DNA of 64,000 nt from Candidatus Uhrbacteria bacterium (lineage in GTDB: Bacteria; Patescibacteriota; Patescibacteriia; JACQRZ01), in assembly GCA_016206175.1 (NCBI GenBank), contig JACQSB010000028.1:2313-66312 (forward strand), read 5' to 3'. Under the pieces are notes generated by a model that ran no database searches, had not been told where the DNA came from, and saw only the letters and a list, made by a program, of their open reading frames with translations. Of the stretch, positions 32,658 through 62,722 are shown piece after piece. How positions within the stretch are numbered: position 1 is the stretch's first letter; every line of letters begins with the position of its first letter. Both the position numbers and the translations under genes were made by a program.

Positions 32658-32778
32658 TCGATGCTATCAAGAGTCCGGCGAGGGAACTGGCCCTATGACC
32701 CGGCGACAACCCTACGTGTTTGCGCAAGCAGATAACAGAAGGTGTCAATTCCAGCCCGAAAGGGAAAGATACCATGGT
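32658..32778 (+). promoter_or_regulatory. SAM-I (S-box) riboswitch aptamer
   Basis: CTATCAAGAG-TCCGGC-GAGGGA-ACTGGCCC-TATGACCCGGCGACAACC...GGTGTCAATTCCAGC...GAAAGATACC matches the S-box consensus blocks. It lies upstream of metK. Confidence 0.9.
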
Positions 32779-55675: not shown

Positions 55676-55739
55676 TGTAATTTCTTGACGCCAGTGAGGC
55701 AGAGTGCTACAAAGGAAGCATTATTCTTTGTTGGAATCT

Positions 55740-57047
55740 ATGCTTGATATTAAATTTATTCGAGAACAGAAAGAAGCCGTAGAACACGCGATTAAGGTGA
55801 AAGGTGTCAGACTTGACCTTTCGCATTTGCTCATACTTGCCGATCAACGGAGTGAATTGATGAGAAAGACAGAAAATCTGCGCGCGGAAAAGAATACAAA
55901 CAGCGAGGAGATCCAAAAGGCGACTTCTCCGGAGTCGCGTGCGCCAATCATCGAGCGCGGCAAACAGATCAAAGAAGAATTGCACGCTCTCGAACAGGAG
56001 CTTCGCACGGTCGAAAAAGAGTATGACGCACTTATGCTCCTTGTGCCCAATATCCCGTCTGCTGATACGCCAGTCGGGTCAGACGCGAGTGGCAATCAGG
56101 AAGTGGCACGATGGGGGAATCCGCCAACATTCTCTTTTTCTCCCAAAGATCATATCGATCTTGGGAAAGCACTCGACCTGATTGACTTGGAAGCAGGTGT
56201 GCAGACAGCCGGATTCCGAGGATATTATTTGAAGAATGAGGCAGCGCTATTGCATGTCGCGCTCCAATGGCATGCGCTGCATAAGTTGGTGGCAAAAGGA
56301 TTCACTCCCATGGTACCGCCGACATTGGTACGCGAATTTGCTCTCGTGGGGAGCGGACATTTTCCGGGGTTCAAGGAAGAGATTTATCAAATCGCAAATC
56401 CAGCCGACATACGAGAAGAGACAGATATGCCGGAGCCGCTCTATCTTGCCGGCACATCGGAGCCGTCTCTGCTTGCCTACCATGTCAGTCGGACATTTGA
56501 CGAGAAAGATCTCCCGATCCGAATGTGCGGCATCTCGCAGTGCTACCGTTCGGAAGTCGGAAGTTATGGCAAAGACACCAAAGGTTTATTTCGACTCCAT
56601 GAATTTGTAAAAGTGGAACAAGTCATTATTTGCAAAAACGACACGCAAGAATCAAACGCGTTTTTAGAAGAATTGCGCGGCGTTGCTGAAGAGCTCTTGC
56701 TAGATCTCAAGCTTGCCTATCGGGTAATACAGATCTGCACCGGCGATATGGGAGCAGGGAAGCACAAGATGTATGACATCGAGACATGGATGCCATCACG
56801 GAATGATTACTGCGAAACGCACTCTGACTCCAATCTCACGGATTGGCAGGCGCGGCGTCTCAACATGAAATACAAAACATCAGACGGCAGAAAAGAATAC
56901 GTCCATACGTTAAACAACACAGCGATTGCATCACCGCGTATTTTAATCGCCCTCTTGGAAACCTATCAGCAGGAAGACGGATCCATTGCAATTCCCGAAG
57001 TCCTTCGTCCCTACATGGGGTATAAGGAAGTGATCAGGAGAGCTTGA
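55740..57047 (+). CDS. serS: Seryl-tRNA synthetase
   Basis: N-terminal coiled-coil arm and class II motifs (YRSEVGS.GKDTKGLFRLHEF, NNTAIASPR). The start is placed at ATG 55740. Confidence 0.95.
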   Translation: MLDIKFIREQKEAVEHAIKVKGVRLDLSHLLILADQRSELMRKTENLRAEKNTNSEEIQKATSPESRAPIIERGKQIKEELHALEQELRTVEKEYDALMLLVPNIPSADTPVGSDASGNQEVARWGNPPTFSFSPKDHIDLGKALDLIDLEAGVQTAGFRGYYLKNEAALLHVALQWHALHKLVAKGFTPMVPPTLVREFALVGSGHFPGFKEEIYQIANPADIREETDMPEPLYLAGTSEPSLLAYHVSRTFDEKDLPIRMCGISQCYRSEVGSYGKDTKGLFRLHEFVKVEQVIICKNDTQESNAFLEELRGVAEELLLDLKLAYRVIQICTGDMGAGKHKMYDIETWMPSRNDYCETHSDSNLTDWQARRLNMKYKTSDGRKEYVHTLNNTAIASPRILIALLETYQQEDGSIAIPEVLRPYMGYKEVIRRA

Positions 57048-57746: not shown

Positions 57747-58880
57747 CTATGGCGCTTCGGTCGATCGGGGCGTCTTTTTTCTTTGCAGCTCCCGCATCAT
57801 GGTTAGATAGAAAGCGAGGTTATGATCCGATGTAAGCCGTAGCCCAAGTACTTCTTGCACGGAAAACAAATGGCGAAGATACGATTTTGAATAAGACTTG
57901 CAGGTAAAGCACGGACATTTCGCATCGAGAGGTTTTGTATCAAATTTGTATTTTTCATTTCTTACGTTCACGATTGAGTACCACGAGTTGCCAGAGGTGA
58001 TTTTTCGTTTTGTCCATACATACGTTCTGCCATGGCGGGCTTCGCGGGTGGGGATAACGCAATCAAACATATCTACCCCTCTTTGTACCGCGTCTACGAT
58101 GTCTTCCGGTTTGCCCACCCCCATGAGATAGCGCGGCTTGTCAGATGGCAGCAGTGCAGTGTTCCATGATACGACTTTGTTGCGAATACTGCGCGGCTCT
58201 CCCACGGCAAGTCCGCCGATCGCATAACCGTCAAAATCAAGTGCGGTCAGGGCGCGTACAGATTGATCCCGTAGTTTTTTATACACCCCGCCTTGCACGA
58301 TCCCAAAGAGCAGTGGCCGACGCGTAGGGGAGACGCGCTTTTGTTTCATGCGTTTTTCAAAATGTTTTTTACTCCGTTCCGCCCAGCGAAGCGTTGTTGC
58401 GAGTGATTGTTCGGCGTACTCGTACGAACACGGGTGCGGCGGACATTCATCCAGCACCATGATAATGTCAGACCCGATAGTAAGTTGCGCATCGATGACA
58501 CTTTCCGGGGTCAGTTTGATTGACGAGCCGTCAATCTCTGATTGAAATGTCACGCCGTCTGGTGTGATCTTCCGTCGTTTCGCAAGTGAAAATACTTGAT
58601 ATCCGCCACTGTCGGTTAAAAGAGGGCCGTCCCACCGCATGAAGCGATGAAGACCCCCGTGTTTTTCGAGCACCGCAAGGCCGGGGCGCTGGATAAGGTG
58701 GTAGGTATTCGATAGAATGATCTCTGCGCCGAGATTACGCAGCTCATCCGGTGAGATATTTCTTACCGCACCACGCGTTGCTATCGGCATGAAAAACGGC
58801 GTATGGATGTTTCCATGCGGGGTCTTGAGTATTCCTCGGCGAATGCCACCGTGCGGGGCATGAAGACGAAAGTATTGCAT
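57747..58880 (-). CDS. tgt: tRNA-guanine transglycosylase
   Basis: TPFFMPIATRGAV, LTDSGGYQVFSL and the zinc site CPCFTC...H. Confidence 0.95.
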   Translation of the reverse strand: MQYFRLHAPHGGIRRGILKTPHGNIHTPFFMPIATRGAVRNISPDELRNLGAEIILSNTYHLIQRPGLAVLEKHGGLHRFMRWDGPLLTDSGGYQVFSLAKRRKITPDGVTFQSEIDGSSIKLTPESVIDAQLTIGSDIIMVLDECPPHPCSYEYAEQSLATTLRWAERSKKHFEKRMKQKRVSPTRRPLLFGIVQGGVYKKLRDQSVRALTALDFDGYAIGGLAVGEPRSIRNKVVSWNTALLPSDKPRYLMGVGKPEDIVDAVQRGVDMFDCVIPTREARHGRTYVWTKRKITSGNSWYSIVNVRNEKYKFDTKPLDAKCPCFTCKSYSKSYLRHLFSVQEVLGLRLTSDHNLAFYLTMMRELQRKKTPRSTEAP

Positions 58881-58898: not shown

Positions 58899-59942
58899 TC
58901 ATTCGACAAACATCGCATCGCCGAAGCTATAAAAGCGGTAGCGTTTTTCCACTGCTATTTTATAGGCATTCAAGATGAACTGCATGCCTCCTTTGTGCTT
59001 CCATTCTGCAAACGCGCACACGAGAACAAGGAGGGTGGAATGGGGGAGATGGAAATTTGTGATCATTGCATCCGTAATACGAAAATCGTATCCGGGTGAT
59101 ATAAAAAGTTTGACATATTTTGCGCCAGACGCAAGGCTGCCGTCTTGGGCGCCAAATGCTTCCAGTGTGCGCACAGCTGTGGTGCCGAGTGCTATTATGC
59201 GACGCCCTTGTTTTTTTGCTTGCGTGATTGCTCGTGCGGTCGCCGGAGAGATCTCCGCGTATTCCGGATGCATGGTGTGATGTTCAATCTTGTCCGTTCT
59301 TATAGGAAGAAATGTGCCGATGCCGACATGGAGGGTGATGGAATGCATTTCTACGCCGATGGCCTGGAGTTTCTTGATCAGGCGTTTGGTAATATGCAGT
59401 CCTGCGGTGGGAGCGGCAACTGATCCCGGCTGCCGCGCGTATACAGTTTGGTAGTCGACGAGTCGCGCATGTTTTTTGATATATGGTGGAGTTGGCGTAT
59501 CGCCGTGCCGCCCGATATATGTGTCAAGCGCCGTGCCGCCTTTAGAAAATCGGATGACCCATGTGCCGTCAGTATTTTTGTGGATCGGGTGCGCGGTCAG
59601 TGTCGTGCTGCTTTGTAGCGCAAGCGTATGCCCTTCATTTTTTTCCGAGACATTTTTGAGTAGAGCTGCCCATCGCGCAGCCGACAACTTTTTTACCAAA
59701 AAAATCTCTACCTGTCCGCCCGTTTGTTTCTTTCCGTACAAGCGCGCAGGGATAACCTTGGAGTCGTTCCATACCAGCACATCTCCGGCGCGTAGCACGT
59801 TTGGCAAATCCGTAAATGTGAGATGGCGCATTTTTTCTTCCTGACAGTTTATTGCCAGGAGTTTGCATCCATCGCGCGGCTTTGCCGGTGTCTGCGCAAT
59901 GCTCGATTGAGGAAGGGTATAAGAAAAATTTGAAATGTTCAT
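58899..59942 (-). CDS. queA: S-adenosylmethionine:tRNA ribosyltransferase-isomerase
   Basis: N-terminal F.Y.LP...IAQ.P, PTAGLH and a C-terminal RFYSFGDAM. Confidence 0.95.
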   Translation of the reverse strand: MNISNFSYTLPQSSIAQTPAKPRDGCKLLAINCQEEKMRHLTFTDLPNVLRAGDVLVWNDSKVIPARLYGKKQTGGQVEIFLVKKLSAARWAALLKNVSEKNEGHTLALQSSTTLTAHPIHKNTDGTWVIRFSKGGTALDTYIGRHGDTPTPPYIKKHARLVDYQTVYARQPGSVAAPTAGLHITKRLIKKLQAIGVEMHSITLHVGIGTFLPIRTDKIEHHTMHPEYAEISPATARAITQAKKQGRRIIALGTTAVRTLEAFGAQDGSLASGAKYVKLFISPGYDFRITDAMITNFHLPHSTLLVLVCAFAEWKHKGGMQFILNAYKIAVEKRYRFYSFGDAMFVE

Positions 59943-60030
59943 AGTATTCGTTGGCGAGAGATGAATTGTTTAGAGCCGAATGCCATGATTGCCGCTGGAG
60001 TGGTAATGCGCAAGAGGTCTATAGTATATC

Positions 60031-60066
60031 ATAAAAAATGAGCGGGTCTCGAAAGGGGAGACCCGC
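60031..60066 (-). terminator. Rho-independent terminator (minus strand)
   Basis: The minus strand reads GCGGGTCTC-CCCTTTC-GAGACCCGC followed by TCATTTTTT. Confidence 0.75.
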
Positions 60067-60077
60067 AATGGAAATGA

Positions 60078-60214
60078 ATCGCTCCGACTGGAATCGAACC
60101 AGCGATTGAATTGCGCTACTGCGCTTTCGCCTCTTTTTCTAGATGTAGTGGATTTTGAGGCAGCGTGGGTACGCATACGATCGCGCTCATCCTGCATGAT
60201 TGAGCATCGGAGCG
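60078..60214 (-). ncRNA. Unclassified structured RNA candidate with tRNA-like T-arm and acceptor pairing
   Basis: The minus strand has GCTGG-TTCGATT-CCAGT followed by CGGAGCG, which pairs with CGCTCCG about 125 nt upstream. A D-like hairpin (GCTC...GAGC) follows the 5' strand. A terminator lies 11 nt downstream. Confidence 0.35.
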
Positions 60215-60342
60215 CGCCAAACGTATTGGACTATGTCAGGCCTATTGTCGGTCCCGCCCGGGGGAAACGGACTGGGGGACCGATTTTCGGTGGAGGTCTG
60301 TATAGCCAAGTTGCTTGGCATGATTTGGGACAGGCGTGGTGA

Positions 60343-60696
60343 TTAGTGTACGGGATCGAGAGACGGCCAAACCCGCCGGAACGGGTTTTTCGGGCCCACC
60401 TCGTAGAGGTGCAGCGTATCGCCCGGGAAGGCGACGTAGAACCGTCCGCTTGGTATCACGTTTACCTCGCTGCTGCCGAAGTATGTTTCGGCATCCACGA
60501 GGACGATCTCTCCTTTCTTGATCATTTCCTGGACCCGGCGCTGTCTTTCGAACGGCTCTTCGACTGTGTGTTGGAACATTCTCGGCTCCAACGAGGATGC
60601 GGGCAGCCCCTCCAGTTTTTCGATCGTCGCGATGACTAATTCAACACTGATATTGAGTTGCTTTTTCAAGATTAGATGCAATGTTTTTTGCGCCAT
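60343..60696 (-). CDS. Hypothetical 117-aa protein (GC-richer orphan)
   Basis: The internal ATG 60696 is preceded by AAGGAGGT at a 9-nt spacing. No family was recognised. Confidence 0.6.
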   Translation of the reverse strand: MAQKTLHLILKKQLNISVELVIATIEKLEGLPASSLEPRMFQHTVEEPFERQRRVQEMIKKGEIVLVDAETYFGSSEVNVIPSGRFYVAFPGDTLHLYEVGPKNPFRRVWPSLDPVH

Positions 60697-60994
60697 CCGG
60701 GGGAACCTCCTTATATGTGATGGCTTGCGGCAACTACTACAAATGCTCACCACGCACTGCAGCGCATTGGAAATCAGGTATGTCTTTCGTCTTATATTCG
60801 TTCGCTCGGGGTTCGGTCGAAATGACATAATGATTTGCATTGCACTGAAGGCGTGGCATTATCAACCACGCATATCCGAAATATAAAAGAACGATAGGAC
60901 AAACGCGAAGAATACCATCATTTTAGTTTTAACGCAATGATTCATGTGCATAACGCTTTTGACATCTCCTTTAGCCGCGTGATAAAGTTTAATT

Positions 60995-62722
60995 ATGCCT
61001 TCCAATCACTCCCTTGAGGCGTTTGCGCCTCTGTTTCAAAAAAATGATTATACGGAAGAAGAAAAATGGTTCATCGAGCCCTTTTTTTCCAATCTTGACC
61101 GTTCTGTATACGCGCCGTACATCGTTTCGCCCGAGCTGATCGGCGCTCTGTGCTCCCGTACGAGCCGAGCGTTGCATGATTTGCGCTACCATTATCTGCG
61201 GGAGTTTGTAAAGCCGTTCGTTGATCCGGTACGCGAAGAAAAAGATACTGACGACGCGTGGAATGCAAAGGTAGCGCATGGCGGCACGTTACGCGAATTC
61301 ATTGGCTTTCTCCACCGACACTCTTTACAAGAATTATTTTCCAACCCGCGCGCGCGTTCGTTTTTCATCAAATGGCTTGCGCAATATGGCGATGATTCGA
61401 TCGCGCAAATGGCTGGCGCGCATTTGTGTTTTTCGGGTTTGTCGCAGGTGGCTATCAAGCATATTGAGGATCAACGCGTAGGCCTTGCCCCGATCGAAAA
61501 ATCCACGCGCTATGTCAATTACGGCGAGAAGGTGAATGGCCATTATTTGTACTATACGGACCCCACCTGGAAGGATCATGGTCTCAAGCAGGAATACGAG
61601 AAGGTGATGGACGGGCTGTTTGATGCGTACCGTTCGCTTCTGCCGCGTATGATCGAATATCTCCAAAAGAAATTTCCCGAAGAAAAAGCATCGGTAGTGG
61701 AAAAGAAGGCATTTGACACGCTGCGTGGCATGCTGCCGACTTCCACGCTTTCACAGGTGACATTTTTTGGCAACGGACAAGCGTTTGAATATATGATCAG
61801 CCGGTCAGCGCGACACCCGCTCGGCGAGATCCGTTGGGCGGCCGAGGCATCGTACGAAGAGCTCAAGACAATCACGCCTGCATTTTTACGCCGCCTCAAA
61901 GACGAAGAACGGAAGGAGAGCATCGAGGCATACCAAGATTACCTCACGCGCAAAGCAGATCGAGTCGCGCCGTTTGCCCGCGAAGCGGGATTGACGGTCG
62001 CCGCCGGCAATTCTGAAAGTTCTCCGTCCGTTCGGTTGGTGGAATACGATCCGGAAGGAGAGAACAAGATTATTACCGGAATGTTATACGCATCATCTCA
62101 GACGCATGCATCGTGGGAGGATACATATGGGGCAGTACAGAAAATGAGCGCTGCGAAGAAAAAAGATGTCATGGACGCATACCTTGAGGGACGGACACAA
62201 CGGTGGCAAAAAGTGGGACGAGCTTTTGAGAATGCATACTTACGCTTTGACATTATGATGAACATTGGTTCGTGGCGTGATATTCATCGGCATCGGATGC
62301 TCACGCAGCAGAAACAGCTCTTTACCTGCAGCCATGGATATGACACGCCGCAGGACGTGGTAGATGGCGGCTTTGAAAAAGAGTACCGTTCGGCTATTGA
62401 TGCCGTCGCTGCTTTGCATTCTCGCATTGTCGATCGCGACCCCTACCTTGCGCAATACTGCGTGACGCTTGCACATCGCGTACGTTTCATGCAATGGACC
62501 AATGTTCGGCAGTGTTTTTGGGAGATCGAATTGCGTACCATACCGGAAGGGCATCCGGATTACCGACACATTGAACAGGAAAAGTTTCGGTTGCTCGAAA
62601 AAGCATATCCTCTGATCACAAGCTACATGCGCGTCAATATCGGGGAGTATGAATTTGCTCGCCGAGGACAGGAAGAACGTATCCAGAAAAAGTTGCATGA
62701 CCTCTCGGCGACTTTGACATGA
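60995..62722 (+). CDS. Long (575 aa) flavin-dependent thymidylate synthase (ThyX)-like protein
   Basis: HRHRMLTQQ resembles the ThyX RHR signature and a downstream ELRT...... segment resembles the ThyX C-terminal helix. The length suggests a duplicated or extended Thy1 fold. Confidence 0.6.
   Translation: MPSNHSLEAFAPLFQKNDYTEEEKWFIEPFFSNLDRSVYAPYIVSPELIGALCSRTSRALHDLRYHYLREFVKPFVDPVREEKDTDDAWNAKVAHGGTLREFIGFLHRHSLQELFSNPRARSFFIKWLAQYGDDSIAQMAGAHLCFSGLSQVAIKHIEDQRVGLAPIEKSTRYVNYGEKVNGHYLYYTDPTWKDHGLKQEYEKVMDGLFDAYRSLLPRMIEYLQKKFPEEKASVVEKKAFDTLRGMLPTSTLSQVTFFGNGQAFEYMISRSARHPLGEIRWAAEASYEELKTITPAFLRRLKDEERKESIEAYQDYLTRKADRVAPFAREAGLTVAAGNSESSPSVRLVEYDPEGENKIITGMLYASSQTHASWEDTYGAVQKMSAAKKKDVMDAYLEGRTQRWQKVGRAFENAYLRFDIMMNIGSWRDIHRHRMLTQQKQLFTCSHGYDTPQDVVDGGFEKEYRSAIDAVAALHSRIVDRDPYLAQYCVTLAHRVRFMQWTNVRQCFWEIELRTIPEGHPDYRHIEQEKFRLLEKAYPLITSYMRVNIGEYEFARRGQEERIQKKLHDLSATLT

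What the first reader, a model, noticed from the sequence alone, without database searches (positions are those of the whole stretch)
59943..60342. 400-bp non-coding gap downstream of a GC-rich orphan contains a T-arm/acceptor-bearing structured RNA of unknown class
On the minus strand a perfect T-arm (GCTGG-TTCGATT-CCAGT) is followed by CGGAGCG. That segment pairs with CGCTCCG about 125 nt upstream (60214-60208), which in turn is followed by AT + GCTC...GAGC, a D-arm-like hairpin. Between them lie about 60 extra nt that include GCGT-ACCC-ACGC and GCGC-AGTA-GCGC hairpins. A strong terminator (60066-60031) follows 11 nt after the acceptor 3' strand. Further upstream is a long GC hairpin (GGTCCC...GGGACC, about 60248-60283). 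The topology, with acceptor and T-arm enclosing an insert, recalls tmRNA or an intron-containing tRNA. However, the element is too short for tmRNA, the first acceptor pair would be C-G rather than G-C, and there is no G3-U70 pair and no ANDxxxLAA-type tag frame.
Basis: seen in the sequence. Interest (0 to 1): 0.55.

Follow-up and report, generated by a model that had tools for sequence, protein, structure and literature searches.

The report
Conserved tRNA-shaped RNA in Uhrbacteria
The gap holds a real, conserved, about 300-base structured RNA that includes a cloverleaf shaped like a tRNA but with a giant arm where the anticodon should be; it matches no known RNA family, occurs in only a handful of related groundwater bacteria, and its function is unknown.

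Summary
On the minus strand, 60080-60214 folds into a four-way junction. It has a 7-bp acceptor stem, a 5-bp D-arm with GG in the loop, a T-arm with loop UUCGAUU, and an 81-nt arm in place of the anticodon arm. The RNA is larger than reported. An invariant 19-nt motif abuts the upstream stop codon (60327-60345). A 104-nt extended hairpin follows (60216-60319), then the cloverleaf, then an intrinsic terminator (60042-60066).

ARAGORN finds no tRNA, intron-tRNA or tmRNA at standard or moderately lowered thresholds; at a much lowered threshold it gives only mutually inconsistent pseudogene calls. Rfam gives nothing in this region, even at E<=10.

Four distinct homologues exist, all in Candidatus Uhrbacteria, and all directly downstream of one orphan 117-aa gene. 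On a hand-curated alignment, 95.8% of pair cells are canonical. Changes on both sides occur in 26 of 73 pairs; no shuffle out of 500 reached this.

A fifth relative keeps the gene, motif, terminator and queA but lacks the RNA. The RNA is therefore dispensable and is not an obligatory queA leader.

My best reading is a lineage-specific tRNA-mimic module in the 3' UTR of the orphan gene's transcript. Existence is well supported; the mechanism is inferred.

The parts
60327..60345 (-). Stop codon UAA plus the invariant C-rich motif UAAUCACCACGCCUGUCCC. It is predicted to be single-stranded. UCACCACGC is complementary over 9 bp to GCGUGGUGA in the 5' UTR of the same gene.
   Evidence: Identical in W, L006, L002 and L005. 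L026 keeps CCACCACGCCTGTCCC although it lacks the rest of the RNA. Unpaired in all four MFE folds. The complementary 5' UTR block is invariant in 5 loci.
60216..60319 (-). 5' domain: a 104-nt extended hairpin (P1-P5). Its apical sequence CAGUCCGUUUCCCCCGGG is conserved.
   Evidence: The same nested fold is predicted independently in all four homologues (83-90% of proposed pairs appear in each MFE). There are both-sided changes in P1, P2 and P4 (5 of 7 pairs in P4). L005 has an inserted U-A pair in P3.
60249..60282 (-). P4/P5 apical hairpin of the 5' domain.
60080..60214 (-). tRNA-like four-way junction (135 nt). It comprises acceptor, D-arm, long arm and T-arm.
   Evidence: MFE fold. CM R1 finds it in W, L006, L002 and L005 only.
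60208..60214 (-). Acceptor stem 5' strand CGCUCCG. It pairs with 60080-60086 (CGGAGCG).
   Evidence: 7 of 7 pairs hold in all four homologues. Position 1 changes C-G to U-G in L005, and position 2 changes G-C to G-U in L002.
60185..60205 (-). D-arm: GCUCA, loop AUCAUGCAGGA, UGAGC.
   Evidence: 5-bp stem. The innermost pair changes A-U to C-G in L005. Loop length is 6-11 nt and GG is always present.
60104..60184 (-). Long arm (81 nt) at the position of the anticodon arm. It has a basal, a middle and an apical helix. The 23-nt apical loop (60134-60156) has the conserved sequence AAAAnnCACUnCA...GAAnAA.
   Evidence: All four homologues form a 74-81-nt irregular hairpin from different helix sequences. 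Apical helix: GCCUC/GAGGC, ACCU/AGGU, UGCUG/CAGCA. Base: GAU/AUC, AUUCG/CGAAU, GUCC/GGAC. Loop conservation is seen.
60087..60103 (-). T-arm: GCUGG, UUCGAUU, CCAGU.
   Evidence: Loop UUCGAUU is identical in W, L006 and L002. In L005 it is degenerate (ACGAU, or CACGAUG). Three of five stem pairs change on both sides.
60080..60086 (-). Acceptor stem 3' strand CGGAGCG. A73 follows at 60079 and then UUC. No CCA is encoded.
60032..60066 (-). Intrinsic terminator: a 9-bp GC-rich stem followed by a U-run.
   Evidence: It is conserved, with compensating stem changes, in L006, L002, L005 and L026.
60023..60031 (-). Extended -10 element TGATATACT. This is the probable promoter of queA (of tgt in L006) and starts at the end of the terminator U-run.
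   Evidence: The same 9-mer sits at the same place in L006, L027 and L026.
60343..60696 (-). Orphan protein gene (117 aa, P0122). The RNA forms the 3' UTR of its transcript.
   Evidence: Third-codon-position changes dominate: 20/12/52 for W versus L006. The family has only 5 lineages among 5.8 billion and 1.84 billion proteins searched. There is no Pfam, NCBIfam, PADLOC or PHROG match.
60697..60937 (-). Promoter (-35 TTGCGT at 60932-60937; extended -10 TGGTATTCT at 60909-60917) and a conserved, about 205-nt structured 5' UTR of the orphan gene. The 5' UTR includes the invariant block GCGCUGCAGUGCGUGGUGAGCA and a hairpin that encloses the SD and AUG.

Best explanation
This is a lineage-restricted, structured non-coding RNA. 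It forms the 3' untranslated part of the transcript of an orphan 117-aa gene in a small clade of Candidatus Uhrbacteria (CPR/Patescibacteria).

Inferred transcription: it starts at the orphan gene's own promoter, about 880 nt upstream. It runs through a structured 5' UTR, the ORF and the roughly 300-nt RNA, and stops at the intrinsic terminator. queA-tgt then restart from their own extended -10 promoter.

The RNA has three parts:
1. An invariant single-stranded C-rich motif next to the stop codon.
2. A 104-nt extended hairpin with a conserved C-rich apex.
3. A 135-nt tRNA mimic. It has a 7-bp acceptor stem stacked on a T-arm, and a D-arm whose GG can dock on the UUCGAUU T-loop. An arm of about 80 nt stands where the anticodon arm would be and presents a conserved A-rich loop.

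Most likely mechanism (inferred, not shown): the cloverleaf is a handle for the tRNA-maturation machinery. RNase P would cut 5' of C60214, followed by 3' trimming and possibly CCA addition. This would release or stabilise a tRNA-shaped RNA of about 135 nt, or define and protect the 3' end of the orphan mRNA. The long arm's conserved loop and the C-rich motifs would serve as contact sites for a partner.

It is not a tRNA, a tmRNA or a known riboswitch.

Confidence that a genuine selected RNA structure exists is about 0.9. Confidence that it is the orphan gene's 3' UTR is about 0.6. Confidence in the tRNA-enzyme handle mechanism is about 0.3.
For: **Structure**
- The MFE fold gives the cloverleaf.
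- Independent single-sequence MFE folds of four homologues recover 62-92% of the proposed pairs in the tRNA-like domain and 83-90% in the 5' domain.
- On the hand-curated alignment A8, 95.8% of 262 pair cells are canonical, against 33-39% when partners are slid. 26 of 73 pairs change on both sides. 0 of 500 shuffles reach any of the five measures.
- G-U and U-G pairs fix the strand as minus.

**Selection**
- RNA identity is 60-76%. Identity at four-fold degenerate sites of the flanking genes is 26-54%.

**tRNA-like features**
- 7-bp acceptor stem, canonical T-loop UUCGAUU in 3 of 4, GG in the D-loop in 4 of 4, and A73 in 3 of 4.
- With an artificial anticodon arm grafted in, ARAGORN accepts the W chimera as a tRNA.
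[quoted passage not shown] The tRNA-like Y RNA of M. smegmatis is cut by RNase P and receives CCA (PMC4201824, read).

**Transcript architecture**
- Extended -10 motifs (TGnTAnnnT) occur only twice per locus: upstream of the orphan 5' UTR and just after the terminator. None lies between the ORF and the RNA.
- The terminator is conserved.

**Linkage to the orphan gene**
- The RNA is found only downstream of this gene (4 of 4).
- It is absent from Uhrbacteria queA loci that lack the gene (L003, L004, L036-L040).
- In L006 queA is missing but the RNA remains behind the orphan gene.
Against: - No expression or end-mapping data exist. Co-transcription and processing are inferred from motifs only.
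- Several canonical tRNA core features are missing. Position 8 is A rather than U. The variable region is 0-1 nt. L005 has a degenerate T-loop and a single linker nucleotide.
- ARAGORN rejects the L006, L002 and L005 chimeras, so recognition by tRNA enzymes is not assured.
- The base at -1 is not conserved (G, G, U, C), and no CCA is encoded.
- L026 has lost both structured domains yet keeps the gene, the motif and the terminator. The RNA is therefore dispensable for the neighbouring genes.
- Only four related sequences exist, and the alignment was fitted by hand to the structure. This inflates the pair statistics, especially in the long arm, where column homology is arbitrary.
Confidence: 0.4

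Rival explanations
1. tRNA-mimic leader that regulates queA-tgt. The cloverleaf would imitate the tRNA substrates of the two queuosine enzymes encoded just downstream. By binding Tgt or QueA, or another tRNA-sensing factor, it would control termination at the terminator or titrate the enzymes.
For: The RNA sits immediately upstream of queA-tgt in W, L002 and L005, and immediately upstream of tgt in L006 where queA is lost. An intrinsic terminator lies between the RNA and these genes. The invariant motif contains CUGUCCC, which by my own comparison resembles the CUGUCAC anticodon loop of tRNA-Asp, a Tgt substrate. This was not tested.
Against: - L026 keeps the terminator, promoter and queA but lacks the RNA.
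- An extended -10 promoter follows the terminator in four loci, so queA need not depend on read-through.
- I saw no sequence able to compete with the terminator stem (inspection). L005 has an extra hairpin of about 75 nt between the cloverleaf and the terminator.
- More distant Uhrbacteria queA loci have no such RNA.
- Gene order is conserved in this clade anyway, so adjacency is not independent evidence.
- The long-arm loop has no conserved UGU.
Confidence: 0.15
2. Cis-acting or RNP element dedicated to the orphan gene. The 3' UTR would pair with the 5' UTR (UCACCACGC with GCGUGGUGA) to control translation or stability of the orphan mRNA. Alternatively, the structured domains would be the RNA partner of the orphan protein. 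This is compatible with the best explanation, not exclusive of it.
For: - There is strict co-occurrence with the orphan gene.
- The 9-nt complementarity lies between two blocks that are invariant in all five loci, even in L002 where the protein is only 33% identical.
- The 5' UTR block otherwise pairs with an internal CCACGC strand, and the SD and AUG are enclosed in a conserved hairpin. This is a layout suited to a switch.
Against: - Both blocks are invariant, so no covariation can test the 5'-3' pairing.
- L026 keeps the motif without the structured domains. The motif's role may therefore be separate from the cloverleaf.
- The protein model is only of medium confidence (pLDDT 70). It has no significant structural neighbour and no recognisable RNA-binding family.
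Confidence: 0.2
3. Decaying or interrupted tRNA gene: either a pseudogene with an insertion or an intron-containing tRNA.
For: Acceptor, D-arm and T-arm are tRNA-like, and the W chimera with a grafted anticodon arm is called a tRNA. At a much lowered threshold ARAGORN emits intron-tRNA pseudo-calls.
Against: - The low-threshold calls disagree between homologues in anticodon, intron position and even strand. Default and intron modes find nothing.
- The Rfam tRNA model gives no hit at E<=10.
- The insert is the best-conserved part (apical loop), and its helices are kept through compensatory changes. This is the opposite of decay.
- No 5-bp anticodon stem with a 7-nt loop can be formed after any simple excision.
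Confidence: 0.03
4. Miniature or unusual tmRNA.
For: The topology is an acceptor stem plus T-arm enclosing a long insert.
Against: - The 3-70 pair is C-G, not G-U, in all homologues.
- There is a true D-stem, which tmRNA lacks.
- No reading frame or stop codon is shared among the four inserts (inspection).
- ARAGORN tmRNA mode and the Rfam tmRNA models give no hit in the region.
- 135 nt is far below the size of tmRNA.
Confidence: 0.01

Closest known systems
YrlA-type bacterial Y RNAs (tRNA-mimicking ncRNAs bound by Rsr/Ro60; PMC4201824)
   Same: Both are non-coding RNAs with a T-arm, a D-arm and an acceptor-like stem arranged as a cloverleaf. In both, the anticodon-arm position is taken by a long helix with another role. 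One member, from M. smegmatis, has a 7-bp acceptor stem and is cut by RNase P and CCA-tagged.
   Different: - In YrlA the RNA ends lie in the long Ro-binding stem and the acceptor stem is closed by a loop. Here the ends are at the acceptor stem and the long arm is closed.
- The Ro-binding motif GNCGAAN0-1G is not conserved here; it matches only in W.
- No rsr gene is among the ORFs from 55.7 to 64 kb.
- There is no Rfam hit.
- This RNA carries an extra 5' hairpin domain and sits in an mRNA 3' UTR.
tRNA-like domain of tmRNA
   Same: In both, an acceptor stem and T-arm enclose a long insert that leaves from the anticodon-stem position.
   Different: This RNA has no G3-U70, no tag reading frame and no pseudoknots, and it has a genuine D-stem. 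It is about a third of tmRNA's size. ARAGORN and Rfam do not recognise it.
3'-terminal tRNA-like structures of long transcripts (MALAT1 mascRNA; plant-virus TLS). This comparison rests on my own knowledge.
   Same: Both are tRNA-shaped modules at the 3' end of a longer RNA. Such modules are read by tRNA enzymes (RNase P, RNase Z, CCA-adding enzyme) to define or protect the 3' end.
   Different: Those examples are eukaryotic or viral and small (about 60-100 nt), with a short or absent anticodon-arm equivalent. Here the host is a CPR bacterium, the arm is about 80 nt, and an intrinsic terminator follows. Processing is untested.
Canonical and intron-containing tRNA
   Same: Shared features are a 7-bp acceptor stem, a T-loop UUCGAUU, a D-loop GG, a 2-nt linker at positions 8-9 and a purine discriminator.
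   Different: Position 8 is A. The variable region is 0-1 nt. There is no anticodon stem-loop and no consistent intron model. No CCA is encoded. The T-loop is degenerate in one homologue.

Membership tests
tRNA (including intron-containing tRNA) | Recognised by tRNA gene finders or covariance models | tested here: not met
   ARAGORN on the whole window finds 0 genes. On the four homologues, default, tmRNA, intron and -ps90 modes find 0. At -ps80 there are only mutually inconsistent pseudogene calls. The Rfam tRNA model gives no hit at E<=10 in 59850-60450.
tRNA (including intron-containing tRNA) | 7-bp acceptor stem, a T-stem of about 5 bp, and a 7-nt T-loop UUCRANY | tested here: met
   The acceptor stem is 7 of 7 paired in all four. 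The T-stem is 4-5 bp. The loop is UUCGAUU in W, L006 and L002. L005 deviates, with ACGAU or CACGAUG.
tRNA (including intron-containing tRNA) | 5-bp anticodon stem with a 7-nt loop, and a variable region of at least 4 nt | tested here: not met
   The arm is 74-81 nt with a 23-27-nt apical loop. Only 0-1 nt lies between the arm and the T-stem.
tRNA (including intron-containing tRNA) | Conserved core nucleotides U8, A14, G18 and G19 | tested here: inconclusive
   GG is present in all D-loops and A follows the D-stem. However, position 8 is A in three homologues, and L005 has only one linker nucleotide.
tRNA (including intron-containing tRNA) | 3' CCA end and aminoacylation | not testable with these tools
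   The sequence after the acceptor stem is AUUCA. No CCA is encoded. Whether CCA is added afterwards is unknown.
tmRNA | G3-U70 alanine identity pair in the acceptor stem | tested here: not met
   The pair at columns 145/297 is C-G in 4 of 4.
tmRNA | Tag-peptide reading frame with a resume codon and a stop codon, conserved among relatives | tested here: not met
   No frame or stop codon is shared by the four inserts (read directly).
tmRNA | Detected by the ARAGORN tmRNA mode or the Rfam tmRNA models | tested here: not met
   Searches give no hit in the element. A sub-threshold tmRNA_permuted match (11 bits against 47 needed) lies elsewhere, on the other strand.
YrlA / bacterial Y RNA | Ro60-binding stem formed by the RNA's 5' and 3' ends, carrying GNCGAAN0-1G | tested here: not met
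   The ends are at the acceptor stem. The motif fits only W (GGCGAAAG) and none of L006, L002 or L005 (sequences; motif from PMC4201824).
YrlA / bacterial Y RNA | Encoded next to an rsr (Ro60) gene | tested here: not met
   The neighbours are serS, tgt, queA, the orphan gene, thyX and two proteins with no Pfam match. Only ORFs within 55.7-64 kb were examined.
Riboswitch or T-box-type transcription attenuator of the downstream gene | Mutually exclusive terminator and antiterminator pairing with the sensor domain | tested here: inconclusive
   I found no segment complementary to the terminator's 5' half by inspection. L005 has an inserted hairpin of about 75 nt between the cloverleaf and the terminator. 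No formal search was done.
Riboswitch or T-box-type transcription attenuator of the downstream gene | Element retained wherever the regulated gene is retained in the clade | tested here: not met
   L026 has queA, the terminator and the promoter but not the RNA. L003, L004 and L036-L040 have queA without it.
Any Rfam 15 family | Score at or above the gathering threshold | tested here: not met
   The only gathering-score hit in the window is a SAM riboswitch at 32661-32775. At E<=10 the region gives only two spurious matches, SECIS_5 and rsmX.

The most novel reading that the evidence does not exclude
The cloverleaf is a working tRNA mimic belonging to a previously unknown two-component cassette: an orphan protein plus its own structured UTRs. 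After RNase P processing and CCA addition, the 135-nt RNA would engage tRNA-binding machinery. The candidates are the queuosine enzymes Tgt and QueA encoded next door, or the ribosome. It would act as a decoy, regulator or carrier, while the 5'/3' UTR pairing couples its release to translation of the orphan gene. This would be a new class of bacterial tRNA-mimic RNA with an 80-nt anticodon-arm substitute, specific to CPR bacteria.
Probability: 0.1. Interest if true: 0.8.

Novelty: new variant of a known kind. Interest (0 to 1): 0.5.

Why it matters
CPR/Patescibacteria are uncultivated, and almost nothing is known about their non-coding RNAs. This element is unannotated and well supported by comparative evidence. 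It mimics a tRNA in a new layout: RNA ends at the acceptor stem, a full D-arm, and a giant arm in place of the anticodon arm. It is embedded in an mRNA 3' UTR.

If tRNA enzymes process it, that would extend the tRNA-like 3'-end module seen in eukaryotic and viral RNAs to bacteria. If it interacts with Tgt or QueA, it would be the first tRNA-mimic regulator of queuosine modification.

There is also a practical consequence. Gene callers read through this RNA and report QueA proteins with false N-terminal extensions: 375, 391 and 435 aa instead of about 347.

Its weight is limited by a very narrow distribution (four RNA-bearing lineages) and by its loss in one relative.

Tried and rejected
- **Known families.** ARAGORN in all modes and Rfam at gathering score and at E<=10 give no assignment.
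- **QueA-based locus search in GTDB genomes.** Nothing confirmed.
- **Pattern scan of genome contigs with the invariant motif plus the hairpin-apex motif (CCCCCGG).** One new homologue, L006.
- **The same kind of scan of metagenome contigs.** 19 loci, of which only L008 and L024 are real, and both are identical to L005. The rest are chance matches in GC-rich DNA.
- **Cloverleaf pattern in viral contigs.** Six chance matches with no T-arm. blastn against phages found no match.
- **Covariance model R1 over 181 kb.** The search covered the window and 12 loci, including more distant Uhrbacteria queA loci. It found only the four known copies. A 12.5-bit hit in L036 lies inside an ExoVII gene.
- **Orphan protein.** No match in Pfam, NCBIfam, PADLOC or PHROGs. 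The AlphaFold model has pLDDT 70. Foldseek against the PDB gave no hit below E = 1e-3. An exhaustive profile search found only two 50%-identity clusters.
- **Targets in the window complementary to the C-rich motifs.** None above chance.
- **tmRNA tag frames and an intron-tRNA reading.**
- **MAFFT alignments of the long arm.** These were structurally inconsistent. I replaced them with a hand alignment passed through MAFFT with N padding. The first attempt shifted one row. The second preserved the columns.
- **Literature searches for tRNA-like RNAs in CPR or Uhrbacteria.** Nothing relevant.
Full report
**Setting**

The window comes from a Candidatus Uhrbacteria genome (CPR/Patescibacteria). Its QueA is 100% identical to an NCBI Uhrbacteria protein.

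Around the finding, these genes lie on the minus strand:
- tgt, 57747-58880
- queA, 58899-59942
- a hypothetical gene whose real product is 117 aa, 60343-60696 (P0122)

serS (55704-57047) and a long thyX (60995-62722) are on the plus strand. The finding is the 400-nt gap between the stop codon of the hypothetical gene and the start of queA. It therefore lies upstream of queA, not downstream.

**Checking the observation**

- CGCTCCG at 60214-60208
- D-arm GCTCA / 11-nt loop / TGAGC at 60205-60185
- T-arm GCTGG-TTCGATT-CCAGT at 60103-60087
- CGGAGCG at 60086-60080
- Terminator stem at 60066-60042 with a U-run
- GC hairpin at about 60249-60282

RNAfold on 60074-60218 returns a four-way junction without any constraint. 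The whole gap folds at z = -4.1, better than all 200 shuffles. The T-arm core GGTTCGANTCC occurs once in 64 kb, where 0.08 is expected. The spacer to the terminator is 13 nt, not 11.

**Known families excluded**

- ARAGORN finds no tRNA or tmRNA anywhere in the window.
- ARAGORN finds none in the homologous loci under default, tmRNA, intron and moderately lowered-threshold settings.
- At -ps80 it emits pseudogene calls that disagree between homologues in anticodon, intron position and strand.
- Rfam 15 has one gathering-score hit in the window, a SAM riboswitch at 32661-32775.
- At E<=10 Rfam reports nothing meaningful in 59850-60450.

**Homologues**

QueA relatives led to L002 (68% QueA identity) and L005 (67%). 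Both have the same gene order and a conserved gap.

A pattern built from two invariant blocks found L006 in a GTDB Uhrbacteria MAG. In JGI metagenomes it found only copies of L005.

The hypothetical protein is an extreme orphan:
- Four 90% clusters in 5.8 billion proteins
- Two 50% clusters in an exhaustive profile search of 1.84 billion representatives
- Nothing further from the divergent L002 copy
- No Pfam, NCBIfam, PADLOC or PHROG family
- A medium-confidence model without significant structural neighbours

It is nevertheless a real gene. Third-codon-position changes dominate, 20/12/52 for W versus L006.

A covariance model of the cloverleaf was searched over the window and 12 loci, 181 kb in all. 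These included more distant Uhrbacteria queA loci. It found only W, L006, L002 and L005. Viral contigs and phage records gave nothing.

**Anatomy**

Alignment of the four homologues shows that conservation begins exactly at the stop codon. Upstream of the stop codon the nucleotides vary at synonymous sites.

From 5' to 3' the parts are:

1. **UAAUCACCACGCCUGUCCC** (60345-60327). It is invariant and unpaired in every fold.
2. **A nested hairpin of about 100 nt, P1-P5** (60319-60216). It is predicted independently in each homologue. Its apex CAGUCCGUUCCCCCGG is conserved.
3. **The cloverleaf** (60214-60080):
   - a 7-bp acceptor stem
   - a 2-nt linker
   - a 5-bp D-stem with GG in the loop
   - a 74-81-nt arm at the anticodon-arm position, whose 23-27-nt apical loop carries AAAAnnCACUnCA...GAAnAA
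   - 0-1 nt before the T-stem
   - T-loop UUCGAUU
   - discriminator A
   - no encoded CCA
4. **A conserved terminator.**
5. **An extended -10 element, TGATATACT,** directly after the terminator.

L002 and L005 can form only the nested version. The GCGC/CGCG tracts of W and L006 are self-complementary, so both readings fit there.

**Evidence for selection on structure**

MAFFT could not align the long arm consistently. I built a hand alignment and passed it through MAFFT with N padding, which left the columns unchanged.

On this alignment:
- 95.8% of 262 pair cells are canonical, against 33-39% when the 3' partners are slid by 1-3 columns.
- 26 of 73 pairs change on both sides.
- None of 500 shuffles reaches the observed value of any of the five measures.

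The most trustworthy helices are those whose columns are anchored by flanking invariant sequence:

| Helix | Pairs with both-sided change |
|---|---|
| P1 | 3 |
| P2 | 2 |
| P4 | 5 of 7 |
| D-stem | 1 |
| T-stem | 3 of 5 |
| Apical helix of the long arm | 4 of 5 |

In addition, the acceptor stem shows C-G to U-G and G-C to G-U changes, and L005 has an inserted U-A pair in P3.

G-U pairs would be A-C mismatches on the other strand, which fixes the orientation. Single-sequence MFE folds recover 62-92% of the proposed pairs in the cloverleaf and 83-90% in the 5' domain in each homologue. RNA identity of 60-76% exceeds identity at four-fold degenerate sites of the flanking genes, 26-54%.

Caveats:
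- Only four related sequences exist.
- The alignment was fitted to the structure.
- Column homology inside the long arm's basal and middle helices is arbitrary.

**How tRNA-like is it?**

I replaced the long arm with a standard anticodon arm and variable loop. ARAGORN then calls the W chimera a tRNA but rejects those of L006, L002 and L005.

Several features depart from the canon. Position 8 is A, the variable region is nearly absent, and L005 has a degenerate T-loop. The element keeps the outline of a tRNA: acceptor/T-arm coaxial stack, D-arm and probable elbow. It does not keep the full canonical core.

**Context and what it is attached to**

The RNA always follows the orphan gene, in 4 of 4 cases. 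In L006 queA has been lost, yet the RNA still follows the orphan gene and now precedes tgt.

In L026 the orphan protein is 75% identical to that of L006. The invariant motif, a 3' hairpin, the terminator, the promoter and queA are all present. The 5' hairpin domain and the cloverleaf are missing. L026 nests inside the clade and the outlier L002 has the RNA, so this is most simply a deletion. The RNA is therefore dispensable and is not required for queA.

Extended -10 motifs occur only upstream of the orphan gene's 5' UTR (with -35 TTGCGT) and just after the terminator. I infer one transcript of about 880 nt: 5' UTR, ORF, then the structured 3' UTR. queA-tgt would be transcribed from their own promoter.

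**The orphan gene's 5' UTR**

This region, about 60697-60902, is itself highly conserved:
- The block GCGCUGCAGUGCGUGGUGAGCA is invariant in all five loci, although the L002 protein is only 33% identical.
- A long-range helix, GCCACGCC.CAGCGC with GCGCUG.AGUGCGUGGU, encloses a variable insert.
- GCCAUC/GAUGGC encloses the SD and AUG.

GCGUGGUGA in that block is exactly complementary to UCACCACGC of the post-stop motif. This suggests 5'-3' pairing, or competition with the internal partner. Invariance precludes a covariation test.

**Mechanism**

Three things are shown:
- a conserved, selected RNA structure with tRNA-like outline
- linkage to the orphan gene
- dispensability

Co-transcription as a 3' UTR is inferred.

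My preferred mechanism has probability about 0.3. The cloverleaf would be a handle for tRNA-processing enzymes that releases or protects an RNA end. This rests on analogy. A 7-bp acceptor stem is a major determinant for RNase P, and the tRNA-like M. smegmatis YrlA is cleaved by RNase P and CCA-tagged (PMC4201824). The conserved long-arm loop and the C-rich motifs would be partner-binding sites.

The rivals are:
- A tRNA-mimic leader or decoy for the queuosine enzymes. This is attractive because of adjacency. It is weakened by L026, by the separate promoter and by the absence of an antiterminator.
- A cis or RNP element for the orphan gene, which is compatible with the preferred reading.
- A decaying or intron-bearing tRNA, or a tmRNA. 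Both are effectively excluded.

**Comparison and novelty**

The nearest known things are YrlA-type Y RNAs, the tmRNA tRNA-like domain and 3'-terminal tRNA-like modules such as mascRNA and viral TLS. The element fails the defining tests of each family; see the membership table.

It is best described as a new architectural variant of the tRNA-mimic kind, restricted to a tiny Uhrbacteria clade. Literature searches found no description of such an RNA in CPR bacteria.

**Verdict**

This is a genuine, previously undescribed structured RNA. The function remains unproven, and the narrow distribution and loss in one relative temper its importance. Interest is 0.5.

Noticed in passing
window 60697-60937 (minus): The orphan gene has its own promoter (TTGCGT, 17 nt, TGGTATTCT) and a conserved structured 5' UTR of about 205 nt. 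The block GCGCUGCAGUGCGUGGUGAGCA is invariant in five loci. A long-range helix encloses a variable insert, and a GCCAUC/GAUGGC hairpin encloses the SD and AUG. It looks like a regulatory leader of unknown type. Rfam has no match.
   Followed up: partly
window 60333-60341 and 60741-60749 (approximate, minus): UCACCACGC, right after the stop codon, is perfectly complementary (9 bp) to GCGUGGUGA in the 5' UTR of the same gene. Both are invariant, so 5'-3' UTR pairing is possible but cannot be tested by covariation.
   Followed up: partly
L026 3358-3514: A close relative keeps the orphan gene, the post-stop motif, a 3' hairpin, the terminator, the TGATATACT promoter and queA. It lacks both the 5' hairpin domain and the cloverleaf. 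This is a natural deletion variant.
   Followed up: yes
L006 4018-4400: In this Uhrbacteria MAG queA is absent, and the RNA with its terminator directly precedes tgt.
   Followed up: yes
L005 648-725; L002 2999-3025: An extra hairpin lies between the cloverleaf and the terminator. It is about 75 nt in L005 and about 25 nt in L002, and is absent in W and L006. L026 has a related hairpin. This is a variable module.
   Followed up: no
L002 3001-4128; L005 628-1803; L028 2625-3932; L029 496-1803: Public gene calls for QueA in these contigs are extended at the N-terminus to 375, 391 and 435 aa, against about 347. The caller read through the terminator and into the structured RNA. These extensions are probably annotation artefacts.
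   Followed up: partly
window 32661-32775 (+): A SAM-I riboswitch (S box) scores 62.9 bits against a gathering score of 44.4. It is the only Rfam family reaching threshold in the window.
   Followed up: no
window 1-64000: ARAGORN finds no tRNA gene at all in 64 kb.
   Followed up: no
window 60995-62722 (+): The ThyX homologue is unusually long at 575 aa. Two stretches match the 191-position Thy1 profile. It is conserved at 575-584 aa in the relatives.
   Followed up: no
window 60125-60132 (minus): GGCGAAAG in the long arm of W fits the Y-RNA Ro-binding motif GNCGAAN0-1G. The match is absent in L006, L002 and L005, so it is probably chance.
   Followed up: yes
window 60697-60710 (minus): The ribosome-binding region of the orphan gene in W reads GGAGGUUCCCCCGG-AUG. 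It repeats the UUCCCCCGG of the 5' domain apex. This is not conserved in the other loci, so it is probably coincidence.
   Followed up: partly
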